Shown here piece by piece: positions 5,613 through 22,289 of a DNA stretch of 64,000 bases; the first letter of the stretch is position 1; the number at the start of each line of letters is the position of its first letter. This stretch comes from Octopus vulgaris. Taxonomy: Eukaryota. The position numbers and the translations under genes are program-made. The stretch covers positions 89,466,001-89,530,000 of the forward strand of contig OX597814.1 of assembly GCA_951406725.2 (NCBI GenBank). Reading direction: 5' to 3'. The notes below the pieces were generated by a model, which did no database searches, was not told the origin of the DNA, and saw only the letters and a program-made list of their open reading frames with translations.

Positions 5613-6354
5613 GAGGCGGTATAATAATATCAAAAGTTTTAAGAGCTATCATCCGAAATAATTAAAATAGTTTAATCATTCAGCTAATGTATTTTCCTCA
5701 CTCCATTCGTATTACTAATTTCATTCCTATGCACACTAAGTTAGCTATTTCGATAAACATGAAATATAGTTCAATGACTTTTGTTGTCTGTTATGGACAG
5801 TCTGAAAACCTTCACTGAGATTCCTCTCCAAGACACAAGCGTGACAAAATTTTTGTTTGAAAGTCAGCAAGTGGTAAGTTAGCTGCAGTTTTCACAGTTT
5901 TGTTTTTAAATTAGCGTTCATATTTAAAACATTTCAATGGACGAGTTATAATTTCTCATATATAAAACTATTTTTGCTTTATCGCCATCTGTGATGATTG
6001 TCGAGAAAGTAGTCAGTTGGAACACTTGCTCTTCAGCTAACAGATGTCTCTATCATTTCTAAGAGTGTACGAAGCTAATCGCTCTATATGTCACCATTCA
6101 TCTGTGGAAATGAATAAATAGATAAATACATATAAGAGAAATAATATATTTCTAAATCTCTCAGAGAGATTTATATAGTAGCAACGCAATAAAGTGATGG
6201 TATGTTGTCAACTTAATGTGACAATCCCAGAAAGGGAAGAATGCTACTGCTATTTAGCTCTAGGAAACACCGTTTCCTGTTGGCCTTGACACATTTCCTG
6301 TGTCCTTATGTTTACAAAGGAGGAGATAAGCACCTCCATCCTTCAAAGCCAGCA

Positions 6355-6397
6355 TCCAGAGACTAGTTTCAGAGTTATTGCTCATCATCAGTCTGGA
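6355..6397 (-). ncRNA. Minimal type I hammerhead ribozyme, intact core
   Basis: Minus strand TCCAGA-CTGATGA-TGAG-CAATAA-CTCT-GAAA-CTA-GTC-TCTGGA: stem I TCCAGA/TCTGGA, palindromic ACTAGT stem III, GUC cleavage triplet. Confidence 0.85.
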
Positions 6398-6651
6398 GTA
6401 GCATGGCTTGCTAGCTGTCGATGCCTATCTGCCTTTGTAAACATATAATAATTCAAGTGAGATGCAGTCACTAATTTCGAAAATAGAAATAATACATTTC
6501 TAAATCTTCCAGAGTGCTGCTACTGTATAAATCTCTCTGAGAGATTTAGAAATGAATTATTTCTATTTTCGAAATCAGTGAATGTATTTCAATTGAATTA
6601 TTATATGTTTACAAAGGCAGATAGGCATCGACAGCTAGCAAGCCATGCTAC

Positions 6652-6694
6652 TCCAGACTGATGATGAGCAATGATTCTGAAGCTAGTCTCTGGA
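6652..6694 (+). ncRNA. Minimal type I hammerhead ribozyme, mutated copy (GAAG)
   Basis: TCCAGA-CTGATGA-TGAGCAATGATTCT-GAAG-CTAGTC-TCTGGA; mirror copy of 6355-6397. Confidence 0.7.
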
Positions 6695-7499
6695 TGCTGG
6701 CTTTTATGGGTGGAGGTACTTATCTCCCCCTTTGTAAACATAAGAACACAGGAAATGTGTCAAGGTCAACAGGGAACGGTGTTTCCTAGGGCTAAATAGC
6801 AGTAGCATTCTTTCCTTTCATGGGACTGTCACATTAAGTTGACAACATACCATCACTTTACATATAAGAAAAATATTTATAAAATAAATTTCAGTAATAT
6901 ACTAGTTTCGTCTCCTCTGCCCATCCTTTTTTTTAAAGATCTCATTTAGCGTCGAATGAAAACATCAATATTTCTGTGAAAAATTAAAAAAGAGAAAACG
7001 AAAAAAAAATAAAACAAAACAAAACAAAGCAAGAGACAGATCGTGTTTTGAGAACTTAGATTTTAGGATTGTATTTTTTGTGGTTAAAATCTCCGTACTT
7101 ACTAGTTCAAAGATTTTCAATATTTTCTTTCGAATGTAAAAATCAATATAGTTCTAAGACACATACATACACACAAAGAAAATAACTTCAATATTTTATT
7201 TTGTCAAATAAAATCCTAAGATGAAGAAATTGTTATTTGACTTACAAGGTCCTTGAAATATTCTTCAATACTACAACGTGAACATAATTCCAAATTCTCT
7301 GTGGTTGGTTTAGTGGAATCGGTAAAACTTTGAGATGAAATATCTCGAGGTATTTACTTTCGTTTCTTTATGTTTTTTGCTCATAACCTACCGACGTCAT
7401 CTTTGCTTTTTATTCTTCCAGAATTAATAAAACATTGATCAAGTACTAGAGTCGATGAAGTAAAATGTCCTTTACCACCAATTTCTTCTTCTTCTTCTA

Positions 7500-7890
7500 A
7501 AAGCGGCGAGCTGGCAGAAACGTTAGCACGCCAGGCGAAATGTCTAGCGGTATTTTGTCTGCCGTTACGTTCTGAGTTCAAATTCCGCCGAGGTCGACTT
7601 TGCCTTTCATCCTTTCGGGGTCGATAAATTAAGTACCAGTTGCGTACTGGTGTCGATCTAATCGACTGGCCCCCTCCCCCAAAATTTTGGGCCTTGTGCC
7701 TTGAGTAGAAAAGAATTGTTAGCGCGTCGGGCAAAATGCTTAGCAGCATTTCGTCCGTCTTTACGTTCTGAGTTCAAATTCTGCCGAGGTCGACTTTGCC
7801 TTTCATCCTTTCCGGGTCGATAAATTAAATACCAGTGAAATTCTAGGGTCGATCTAATCGACTAGTCTCCTCCTACGAAATTTCAGGATT
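7500..7890 (+). mobile_element. SINE family A, two tandem copies (tail 2)
   Basis: Head at ~7503; second unit restarts at ~7718 within the head. Confidence 0.9.
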
Positions 7891-7934
7891 ATCATTATTA
7901 TTATTCCAAATAATAATAATAATATTATTCTTGT

Positions 7935-8375
7935 GAAGGCGCTAGATCGCGGGTTCGATTCCCGAACCGAGTAGTGTGTTGTGCTCTTGAGCAAAGCACT
8001 TCATTTCACGTTGCTCTGTGATCATTTGGACATGTGTTTCATAGCACACATGTGTACCAGTACAGGCAATGCCGATTTGATGGGGAAATTAGCTAAGGCA
8101 CAGCACATACATTTGGTCACTATAAACAAATTATATGTGCAGGTTGTTCAGCAGAAACTGAACACTCATAAGTCATTTTCGACTGGAGAGTCCATCATTA
8201 ATGATCATAAGATTGTGGTTTCGATTCCTGGACCGGGCGACGCGTTGTGTTCTTGAGCAAAACACTTCATTTCACGTTGCTCCTGTCCAATCAGCTGACA
8301 AAAATGAATAATCTTGCGACGGACCGGCGTCCCATCAGGTGAGGACGCCACGAAACTGGGAAACCGACTCTTATT
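7935..8375 (+). mobile_element. SINE family D, two partial tRNA-derived copies
   Basis: B boxes GGTTCGATTCCC and GGTTTCGATTCC, each followed by GTG(C/T)TCTTGAGCAAA(G/A)CACTTCATTTCACGTTGCTC. Confidence 0.7.
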
Positions 8376-8399
8376 ACTCGAAAAGGTAACTTTTATCTT

Positions 8400-20167: not shown

Positions 20168-20700
20168 TATATATATATATATATATATATATATATATAT
20201 ATATATATATATATATATATATATATATATACATATATATACATACACACACCCATATATATATATATATACATATATATAAATATATATTGTATATATA
20301 CATATATATGTATGTATATATATACACAAACATATATGTATACATGTATATATCTATATCTATCTATCTATCTATCTATCTATAAATACATACACACACA
20401 TATATATAATTATTACATGTACTATATATATATGTGTACAAGTGTGTGTGTGTATGAACGTTTCTTTTTGTGTGTGTATATATATATATATATATATATA
20501 CACACTCTTAATTACGCACAATATATGTACACGCACACACATATATAAGTATATATATATATATATATATATATATATATATATATATGTATGCATAAAA
20601 TATATATAATGCATATAAATGTGTGCATGTGCACAATTGCGTGTGTGTGTATTCGTGCATGTGTGTATTTGTGAACATGCTTGTGTGTATGCATGTTCGT
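20168..20700. repeat. (TA)n/(TG)n-rich microsatellite tract
   Basis: Direct reading. Confidence 0.93.
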
Positions 20701-21324
20701 CAAAGAAAATTTGCGTATTTCGTTTTATTTTTCTTCTCCGTTTTTAGAATATTTCTACATGATGCTTGATTTGATCTCTAATCCATTGCTTGAGATCGCA
20801 TAAATTTTCCATTCTTTTAAATTTCATTATGCATCGTTCACACTGAAAATTTTCAGCCGCTGAAACTTGGAAATATTTATTCTTGAAAAAGCAAAGCCAG
20901 TACAAGTTTACCAGGTCGATCGGTAATCTACTTTTCCTATTCAGTAATTTCTCTATAGTATCAGCATACTTGTATAAAAGTATTACAATACAAGTTTCAG
21001 TATTTTACATGTTTACCGAGCGCTTGACACTTGTATACATACAGGTCAAACAAATGCACCCTCACATGCATACGTTCATATATACATACATACGTACAAA
21101 CATCTCTCAGTCTATGTATCCGTCGCTGCCTGTCGGTCTATCTGTCTGTCTGTATGTCTGTCTGTCTGACCCTTTCTCTCTCTCACTCTATGAACCTCTC
21201 TGTCGGTCGATGTCTGTCTGACTCTCTCTTCTCCAATTTTTCTCTCTATCTAGCCGTCTCAGCCTATCTGTCTTTCTTTATTCCCCCCTCTCTCTCTCAC
21301 ACATACACTCTCTCTAACTAACCT

Positions 21325-21527
21325 TGTCTGTCTGTCTGTCTGTCTCTGCTTGTCTGTCTGTGTCTGTCTATCTGTCTGTCTGTCTGTCTGTCTGTCTCTG
21401 TCTGTCTGTCTGTCTGTCTGTCTGTCTGTCTGTCTGTCTGTCTGTCTGTCCCTCTCTCTCTCTCTCTCTCTCTCTCTCTCTCTCTCTATATATATATATA
21501 TATATGTATATATACATATTTATATAT
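21325..21527. repeat. (TCTG)n(TC)n(TA)n microsatellite
   Basis: Direct reading. Confidence 0.93.
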
Positions 21528-21529
21528 AA

Positions 21530-21690
21530 GGTGGCTTCTTTCAGTTTTCGTCAACCAAATCCACTCACAAGGCTTTAGTCGGCTTGAGGCTATGGTAAAA
21601 GACACTTGCTGAAGATGCCGCGCAGTGGGACTGAACCCAGAAGTATGTGGTCGGGAATTAGATGTCTTACCACATAGCCATTGCGCGCTT
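21530..21690 (-). mobile_element. SINE family B, 5' half
   Basis: Reverse complement of the family B motif GCCTTGTGAGTGGATTTGGTAGACGGAAACTGAAAGAAGCC plus tRNA-like head. Confidence 0.8.
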
Positions 21691-21842
21691 GGGGCCCAAA
21701 TTCGCCTATAAATACAGTTGCGGGTATTAAGCAGGTGAACACTTACCTGATTATTCCATGAGACAGCTTTGTATAACTCCATATAAACTCTCACAACTAT
21801 CCATCACGTTTAATTTCTTTTATGTATATCTTATTTAAATGT

Positions 21843-22263
21843 ATTATTAAATCTCTGAACGAGATGTAAACATAACCGCTCGACAATGTAAAGTATAATA
21901 GCCATCTCAATATGGCTAACCACAAAGGGTGGGTGTTACTGTAGCTTTTAGCCCCAGGGGATCATCGTCTCCAGCTGGCTTTAGGCACACTATCTGTGCC
22001 CTTATGGTATTTGCAAAGGGAGGCCATCCCTTTCTCGTAAGCCTAAGTGATACGACCGGACTGCAGAGGCAACAACCTCGAAACTGCAGTCCGGTCGTAT
22101 CACTTAGGTTTACAAGAGAGGGATGACCTCCCTTTGCAAATACCATAAGGGCACAGAAAGTGTGCCTAAAGCCAGCTGGAGACGATGATCCCCTAGGGCT
22201 AAAAGCTACAGTAACACCCACCCTTTGTGGTTAGCCATATTGAGATGGCTATTATACTTTACA
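21843..22263. mobile_element. Near-perfect fold-back element related to 6138-6859, with a hammerhead remnant at the apex
   Basis: 182 bp arms 21885-22066 and 22084-22265 with about 6 mismatches by eye. Direct repeat TTATTTAAATGT at 21831-21842 and 22264-22275. Apex GAGG-CAACAA-CCTC-GAAA-CTGCA-GTC. Confidence 0.88.
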
Positions 22264-22289
22264 TTATTTAAATGTGTTTTATCTTTTAT

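What the first reader, a model, noticed from the sequence alone, without database searches (positions are those of the whole stretch)
6128..22275. Three hammerhead-ribozyme fold-back retroelements with one shared insertion architecture
Seen: three independent insertions (6138-6859, 18093-18612, 21843-22263) each have a 10-12 bp flanking direct repeat, two inverted arms and a 30-50 nt tail on only one arm. Each has a minimal HHR motif or remnant whose sense strand points outward from the centre. None encodes a protein. Established: Penelope-like elements (PLEs) carry minimal type I HHRs with short palindromic stem III in their pseudo-LTRs and often insert as inverted arrangements with a tail; HHR-bearing non-autonomous retrozymes exist in animals. 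Inference: this genome hosts several ribozyme-processed, non-coding retroelement families mobilised in trans by PLEs. Whether these families are already catalogued cannot be judged here.
Basis: partly seen in the sequence, partly recalled or inferred. Interest (0 to 1): 0.9.

Follow-up and report, generated by a model that had tools for sequence, protein, structure and literature searches.

The report
Penelope fold-back insertions with hammerhead ribozymes
These three hairpin-shaped insertions are truncated copies of Penelope-type jumping sequences with hammerhead ribozyme motifs, a known pattern, but almost every such hairpin examined has a tail on exactly one arm, which likely means the copying enzyme starts at two RNA sites at once, one on each cut DNA strand.

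Summary
The three fold-backs are real, each with a 10-12 bp target duplication and one tailed arm. They are not three independent non-coding families. E2 (18094-18612) is the truncated end of an autonomous Penelope/Poseidon retrotransposon; long copies carry RT and GIY-YIG, and the tail is the ORF's start. E1 and E3 are related ~350-nt head-to-tail units, i.e. non-LTR retrozymes; no autonomous partner was found. Only one of six arms in the window keeps an intact hammerhead. The E3 family core is mostly the compensated U3-A8 form. Inverted copy plus tail plus target duplication is the published Penelope signature, and this scan noted it before in shark-type DNA. What the copies add: 108 of 113 classifiable fold-backs have exactly one tailed arm, arms usually share a haplotype, and in 14 of 18 E3 cases neither arm contains the other. 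That argues against simple snap-back and for paired priming from the two known RT start sites. About 12% of E2 arms lack 3 nt across the predicted cut site, usually in one arm only; E1 and E3 show no such scar. No cleavage or RNA was shown. Verdict: new members of known kinds with a testable mechanistic lead.

The parts
6128..6137 (.). E1 left target-site duplication (10 bp)
6138..6514 (-). E1 tailed arm: one 348-nt unit plus part of the next turn; tail about 6138-6189
6355..6397 (-). E1 intact minimal type I hammerhead (CUGAUGA 6391-6385, GAAA 6370-6367, palindromic stem III, predicted cut after 6361)
6514..6859 (+). E1 untailed arm, about one full turn of the unit; its hammerhead (6652-6694) has GAAG in place of GAAA
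6860..6869 (.). E1 right target-site duplication
18081..18090 (.). E2 left target-site duplication (10 bp, 12 with one mismatch)
18094..18382 (-). E2 untailed arm: 5'-truncated pLTR of an autonomous Penelope/Poseidon element; hammerhead at 18181-18150 with GCU in place of the GUU triplet
18383..18612 (+). E2 tailed arm; hammerhead core 18495-18501 and GAAA 18523-18526 with a 3-nt deletion across the predicted cut site; tail 18580-18612 is coding sequence of the ORF start in full-length copies
18613..18622 (.). E2 right target-site duplication
21831..21842 (.). E3 left target-site duplication (12 bp)
21843..22066 (-). E3 tailed arm: 3' part of a 355-nt retrozyme unit, beginning in hammerhead stem III; tail 21843-21884
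22067..22263 (+). E3 untailed arm; holds only the 3' half of the hammerhead (stem II, GAAA 22080-22083, palindromic stem III, predicted cut after 22091); the 5' core is cut off
22264..22275 (.). E3 right target-site duplication

Best explanation
These are three 5'-truncated Penelope-type retroinsertions, one (E2) the terminal repeat of a protein-coding Penelope/Poseidon element and two (E1, E3) copies of related non-coding ~350-nt hammerhead units likely moved by a Penelope enzyme, each likely made when a predicted dimeric RT-endonuclease nicked both strands of an AT-rich target and primed one cDNA from each nick at two different start sites on the RNA. Shown: family identity, tandem unit structure, duplications of mostly 10-14 bp, one tailed and one untailed arm, staggered 5' ends, shared haplotypes between arms. 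Inferred: staggered nicks about 12 bp apart give the duplication; one cDNA starts at the end of the tail and the other 32-52 nt upstream; both grow toward the 5' end of the RNA, stop at random points and are joined head to head. The E1/E3 template is inferred to be a circle or multimer made by dimer-type hammerhead cleavage, since arms run through the ribozyme and past one unit length.
For: E2: upstream of the pLTR lie RT (RVT_1, E=1.2e-6, just under the curated cut-off) and GIY-YIG coding DNA; near-full-length copies L321 and L322 read 5' partial pLTR, tail, ORF, 3' pLTR, tail. E3: 355-nt array of at least 8.4 copies at 99%; E1 period about 348 nt. One-tail rule: E1 26 of 27, E2 64 of 67, E3 18 of 19 classifiable fold-backs, plus 4 of 4 further E3 pairs (one tail partial); half would be expected if arms chose independently. 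Neither arm contains the other in 14 of 18 E3 fold-backs; some tailed arms are little more than the tail and stop at the upstream start site (L236, L086, L198, L210, L172). Same source: 8 of 8 E3 pairs seen among the 100 listed matches share the ribozyme subfamily (read by eye); 13 of 21 E3 pairs rank in the top 15% for shared minor alleles; 19 of 20 E1 loci share the main subfamily (read by eye). Ribozyme conservation: E3 positions 3/8 are U-A in 33 and C-G in 15 of 54 arms; co-folding two copies gives the double-hammerhead as best fold for E1 and the E3 U3-A8 form. Literature: the Anolis Poseidon protein cuts and extends both strands, starts at two adjacent internal sites that define the tail and is predicted to be a dimer (PMC11167929).
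Against: No autonomous partner for E1/E3 was found: none of 30 loci from a protein search (all E2 family) or 30 GIY-YIG loci (7 clusters, one a host-like gene) had an E1/E3-like terminal repeat. Arms usually overlap on the template, so one RNA needs strand displacement; two RNAs from one source are not excluded. 8 of 21 E3 pairs were not closer than chance (4 had no shared minor allele), E2 arms shared no more minor alleles than re-paired arms (9 vs 6.7, p=0.23), and one E1 pair was discordant. 5 of 113 fold-backs break the one-tail rule. Co-folding did not give the hammerhead dimer for the E2 or the E3 C3-G8 copy tested. 5' ends show no cut-site enrichment. In vitro, ribozyme mutants did not affect insertion by the Anolis protein, and 8 of 9 Xenopus retrozyme dimers did not cleave.
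Confidence: 0.68

Rival explanations
1. Same families, but the inversion is made by self-priming or cDNA snap-back, and the endonuclease then trims one arm to leave a single tail (close to the suggestions in PMC3846280 and PMC8557442).
For: Head-to-head geometry, one tail and shared haplotypes are all expected; in 4 of 18 E3 cases the tailed arm contains the untailed one.
Against: Snap-back makes one arm a subset of the other. In 14 of 18 E3 cases the untailed arm reaches further 5' while lacking the tail; by my arithmetic, 12 of these stay non-nested even if the template is a circle. E2 cases L172 and L165 have a tail-only arm beside an arm with no tail.
Confidence: 0.12
2. Two RNA molecules, one per RT subunit, are copied from opposite nicks, each subunit fixed to a different start site.
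For: Explains overlapping arms without strand displacement, the occasional discordant pair (L013) and the E2 3-nt deletion being in one arm only (24 discordant vs 5 concordant pairs).
Against: Rare E3 haplotypes are shared by both arms, which needs both RNAs to come from one source locus; tail-only arms that stop at the upstream start site suggest two cDNAs meeting on one RNA (4 E3 arm ends within 3 nt of that site, 1.7 expected: weak).
Confidence: 0.15
3. E1 and E3 are solo pLTRs of autonomous elements not yet found, and the E3 array arose by local DNA amplification.
For: E2 pLTRs also form a local tandem (L215); partner searches covered only 60 loci; the bioRxiv paper describes this route.
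Against: Every E1/E3 copy longer than one unit that I mapped continues upstream into the same unit, never into coding DNA, whereas E2 copies run into GIY-YIG.
Confidence: 0.1
4. MITE-like or foldback DNA transposons with fixed inverted ends.
For: Long inverted arms and flanking duplications.
Against: Variable centres and lengths, unequal ends, duplication length 7-18 with mode 12 in E2, single-arm and tandem copies, and an RT-coding parent for E2.
Confidence: 0.01

Closest known systems
Endonuclease-positive Penelope-like elements, Penelope/Poseidon clade (PMC3846280, PMC8557442, PMC11167929)
   Same: RT then GIY-YIG, pLTRs with a minimal hammerhead, 5' truncation, inverted truncated copy, 30-40 bp tail on one end that is ORF-start sequence, short duplication in AT-rich DNA. 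E2 fits all that I tested.
   Different: An octopus family with thousands of ribozyme-bearing arms; about 12% of arms lack 3 nt across the predicted cut site, not mentioned in the passages I read.
Metazoan non-LTR retrozymes (PMC7229834, PMC7761336, bioRxiv 10.64898/2026.07.22.740005)
   Same: Non-coding 350-nt head-to-tail units with one type I hammerhead each, palindromic stem III, monomers to long arrays; mussel units are 350-390 bp; a U.U mismatch at the base of stem II as in the axolotl Amex2 motif (E1).
   Different: Here most sampled dispersed copies carry the Penelope integration footprint (two fixed 3' ends, inversion, duplication), which is structural evidence for Penelope mobilisation; those papers argue from co-occurrence and sequence likeness. 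E3 uses U3-A8 or C3-C4-G8 cores. Circular RNA and cleavage are untested here.
L1 twin priming (recalled from memory, no call)
   Same: Both target nicks prime cDNA, giving an inversion inside one duplication.
   Different: In L1 the second primer lands at variable internal sites and the segments do not overlap; here both starts are fixed and the arms usually overlap.
Natural U3-A8 hammerheads (PMC3088659)
   Same: The C3-G8 core pair covaries to U3-A8 and such ribozymes are active in vitro.
   Different: Here the two forms mark sister subfamilies of one mobile family.

Membership tests
EN+ Penelope-like element (E2) | Single ORF with RT followed by GIY-YIG endonuclease | tested here: met
   RT motifs and a GIY-YIG-type C-terminus in L097/L108, RVT_1 E=1.2e-6, named homologues called GIY-YIG endonuclease; all long copies seen are broken
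EN+ Penelope-like element (E2) | pLTR with minimal type I hammerhead on both sides of the ORF; tail equal to the ORF start | tested here: met
   L321, L322: 5' partial pLTR and tail run into the ORF, 3' pLTR with tail; the 5' copies are cut short of the ribozyme
EN+ Penelope-like element (E2) | 5' truncation, inverted copy, optional tail, short duplication | tested here: met
   70 of 150 loci hold an inverted pair, 64 with one tail
EN+ Penelope-like element (E2) | Clade placement by RT phylogeny | not tested
   Penelope/Poseidon call rests on domain order and motif likeness (recalled), no tree with named references
Non-LTR retrozyme (E1, E3) | Non-coding 150-400 nt unit in head-to-tail repeats | tested here: met
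   E3 array period 355; E1 only as partial tandems, period about 348
Non-LTR retrozyme (E1, E3) | One conserved type I hammerhead per unit | tested here: met
   E1 CUGAUGA in 66 of 71 arms that passed the motif filter; E3 3-8 pair kept in 48 of 54; stem II and 3-8 covariation across 14 chosen rows, 0 of 500 shuffles as high, relatedness not controlled
Non-LTR retrozyme (E1, E3) | Self-cleavage and accumulation as circular RNA | not testable with these tools
   Only assembled contigs of runs guessed to be RNA were available
Non-LTR retrozyme (E1, E3) | An autonomous PLE sharing the terminal sequence | tested here: inconclusive
   None among 60 PLE-protein loci; search far from exhaustive
Rfam hammerhead families | Match to a curated covariance model | tested here: not met
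   No hammerhead model at E up to 1 in the window or up to 10 in three short stretches
MITE / foldback DNA transposon | Equal fixed terminal inverted repeats and fixed-length duplication | tested here: not met
   Unequal ends, variable duplication, single-arm and tandem copies

The most novel reading that the evidence does not exclude
Penelope inversions and tails are one event: a dimeric RT-endonuclease primes both target strands on one RNA, always one strand at each of the two start sites, so every fold-back has exactly one tail; animal retrozyme circles use the same route; and the 3-nt deletion in about 12% of E2 arms is a scar left where RT crossed a ribozyme-cut template, a genomic trace of hammerhead cleavage during retrotransposition.
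Probability: 0.4. Interest if true: 0.65.

Novelty: new member of a known kind. Interest (0 to 1): 0.4.

Why it matters
The elements themselves are ordinary for a Penelope-rich genome. The copy statistics bear on two points that the papers read leave open: how Penelope inverted structures form, and whether animal retrozymes are really inserted by Penelope enzymes. The one-tail rule and staggered arms give a sharp prediction for the existing in vitro Poseidon assay, and the shared footprint links the ~350-nt hammerhead units to that enzyme class by structure rather than by co-occurrence. In practice, such hairpins can be mis-filed as MITEs or microRNA precursors.

Tried and rejected
Rfam scans: no hammerhead match; miRNA and snoRNA hits are simple repeats or hairpins below threshold. 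Idea that the E2 palindrome moves as a fixed unit with two diverged arms: rejected, the 3-nt deletion sits on tailed and untailed arms alike and centres vary. Idea that the deletion marks one subfamily: not supported, it occurs on both endonuclease-region subfamilies and both N7 states, though it was in 6 of 17 long-copy 3' arms picked with a deletion-bearing copy's coding region, against about 12% genome-wide. Idea that a cut-site scar is general: rejected, 0 of 79 E1 matches had the equivalent 2-nt loss and none was seen among 54 E3 arms. 5' ends at the cut site: no enrichment. Short hidden inverted ends on single-arm E3 copies: 1 of 25 above background. Partner search for E1/E3: none; L211 and L212, with two E1 copies 2-3 kb apart, showed no match to the E2 protein. 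RNA: no listed holder is on record as RNA; contigs of four runs guessed to be RNA covered all 28 bins of one E3 unit, none spanned it and no molecule ends could be read, so this is no evidence either way. One search used a mis-registered stem II and was redone; stem I and III were not counted because the alignment did not keep them in register. The upstream ruler failed, so arm lengths for E2 were not measured there. Paper searches for a Penelope twin-priming model, for recent mechanism papers and for octopus hammerheads found nothing on point in the open library; subscription papers, Dfam and Repbase were not searchable, so the families may already be catalogued. Supplements of the bioRxiv paper could not be seen; its species list may bear on whether molluscs were covered.
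Full report
Observation. The three insertions are at the stated places, with inverted arms, a tail on one arm and 10-12 bp duplications. A strict type I hammerhead descriptor found only the two E1 arms in the window. Rfam has no matching hammerhead model; PMC4209133 (passages) describes minimal PLE hammerheads found with a relaxed descriptor. 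Only the E1 left arm keeps an intact core. The genome is 2.8 Gb in 227 contigs, and the one species-named protein among the 120 listed homologues of the E2 ORF is from an octopus (74%), so I read it as an octopus.

Families. Each arm has many relatives: first-look candidates 2719, 1831 and 2323 (not copy numbers). Exact patterns gave 79 (E1), 4302 plus 695 (E2) and 293 (E3). E3 forms a 355-nt array of at least 8.4 copies at 99%. E1 has a period of about 348 nt, seen as partial tandems. E1 and E3 are homologous: 68% over 177 nt, E=2e-15, and alignable over nearly the whole unit. Copies longer than one unit continue upstream into the same unit. E2 differs: upstream of its repeat lies GIY-YIG and RT coding DNA, and L321 and L322 show 5' partial pLTR, tail, ORF, 3' pLTR, tail, with the tail encoding the ORF start, as for the Anolis element. 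So the window's E2 is a dead truncated copy of an autonomous element.

Ribozymes. E1: CUGAUGA in 66 of 71 arms that passed the motif filter, four stem I pairs kept in 67-69 of 71, a U.U mismatch at the base of stem II, palindromic stem III. E3 has two subfamilies, UUGACAA and CCGAAGA/CUGAAGA; positions 3/8 are U-A in 33, C-G in 15, U-G in 3 and other in 3 of 54 arms. That is one inherited double change, not 48 events, but it preserves the known core pair; U3-A8 forms are natural and active (PMC3088659, passage). On 14 chosen rows the 3-8 pair and stem II gave 81% paired cells and 16 double changes, above all 500 shuffles and all slid controls (kinship not controlled; the two E2 rows were out of register). 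Co-folding two copies gave the double hammerhead for E1 and E3 U3-A8 but not for the E3 C3-G8 or E2 copy tried; one natural E3 unit folds stably as a circle (z about -5, crude shuffle). Cleavage itself was not tested.

Architecture across copies. In position-ordered samples 16 of 25 E3 loci and 18 of 29 E2 loci are inverted. 3' ends fall at two fixed sites 32-52 nt apart; 5' ends are scattered and not enriched at the cut site (4 of 85, 4.1 expected). E1: of 64 loci, 27 have both outer ends at the fixed sites, 26 with one tail and 1 with two; 27 are single-direction and 10 complex (a few short tailed arms overlap a palindrome inside the tail). E2: of 150 loci, 70 hold an inverted pair; taking the outermost pair, 64 have one tail, 1 two, 2 none and 3 are partial (L269 and L270 are likely one insertion duplicated). 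E3: of 49 loci, 22 are inverted; 18 have one tail, 1 none (L083) and 3 could not be classed; four more pairs all had one tail. Total 108 of 113 in the main sets, against half if arms chose independently (computed p near 1e-27 on 112, before L083 was counted). E2 duplications run 7-18 bp with mode 12 (48 pairs); controls gave 3 of 256.

Mechanism. In 14 of 18 E3 fold-backs the untailed arm reaches further 5' than the tailed arm, and in 4 the reverse. An arm copied from the other by snap-back must lie within it, so the 14 need two separate primings on RNA. Arms mostly come from the same source: 8 of 8 E3 pairs among 100 listed matches share the ribozyme subfamily, three with rare variants (by eye); 13 of 21 pairs rank in the top 15% for shared minor alleles (four of the pairs were picked from that listing); 19 of 20 E1 loci share the main subfamily (by eye). 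E2 is too uniform to tell (p=0.23). PMC11167929 (main text read) reports that a Poseidon protein cuts and extends both strands, starts at two adjacent internal sites that bound the tail and is predicted to be a dimer, but does not discuss inverted insertions. Putting these together, the simplest model is paired priming, one nick at each start site. One RNA or two from one source cannot be told apart here. PMC3846280 (passages) favoured self-priming; PMC8557442 (passages) ascribes the tail to endonuclease resolution and calls the cycle undefined.

The E2 deletion. 695 exact matches lack 3 nt across the predicted cut, against 4302 intact; a 3-nt loss in a true tandem repeat 5 nt away has 92, about 12% versus 2.5% after correcting for pattern length. 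Among 49 inverted pairs, 24 differ in it and 5 share it (samples enriched for it). It occurs on both coding subfamilies and, counted by eye in the 100 listed matches of each pattern, is not enriched for the CpG-decayed form (19 vs 17). It may be a jump of RT across a cleaved template using 2 nt of microhomology. Against: E1 has a better microhomology and shows 0 of 79; E2 pLTRs carry many other deletions; slippage in front of the stem II hairpin would look the same. I give the scar reading about 0.3.

Comparison and verdict. Inverted truncated copy, tail on one end and 8-10 bp duplication are described for Penelope (PMC3846280, PMC8557442, PMC8969392; passages). Type I hammerhead units of 350-390 bp are described in a mussel (PMC7229834, passages), their Penelope link is proposed in PMC7761336 (passages) and argued in bioRxiv 10.64898/2026.07.22.740005 (parts 1-3 of 5). 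Two earlier notes of this scan on shark-type DNA reached the same ordinary reading (unchecked). No partner for E1/E3 was found among 60 protein-coding loci, and the RNA look was uninformative. Searches found no paper with the paired-priming reading in the open library. E2 is a new member of a known autonomous class, E1 and E3 new members of the retrozymes; interest 0.4, carried by the one-tail rule rather than by the elements.

Noticed in passing
L324 (G000:C16:20835500-20841000) and L295-L320: A young Neptune-like PLE family (clade name recalled from motif likeness) with many unbroken 781-aa frames; its pLTR hammerhead also uses the U3-A8 core with a palindromic stem III.
   Followed up: partly
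L215:700-2520: Local tandem of about 215-nt E2 pLTR-plus-tail units in which some units carry the 3-nt cut-site deletion and others do not: a satellite born from a pLTR.
   Followed up: partly
L216 (G000:C4, about 13620759-13624177): E3 array with ten U3-A8 hammerheads at 99% identity, a candidate source locus.
   Followed up: partly
L177:2088-2383 and L047:1908-2198: A third family related to E1/E3 in the 3' half, also inserted as fold-backs.
   Followed up: no
L294 and L318: Another PLE family; L294 shows downstream a hammerhead-like motif with a U.U mismatch at the stem II base as in E1, but no sequence likeness to E1.
   Followed up: no
L097, L098, L107, L117, L119: Long E2 copies with larger deletions, several at short repeats, that remove the ribozyme cut site.
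   Followed up: partly
E1 family, positions +5 and +6 after the predicted cut: Highly variable dinucleotide right after the four conserved stem I pairs.
   Followed up: no
window 21500-21680, 22289-22681, 25135-25523, 47592-47922 and others: Copies of abundant short interspersed repeats shared with the flank of L294.
   Followed up: no
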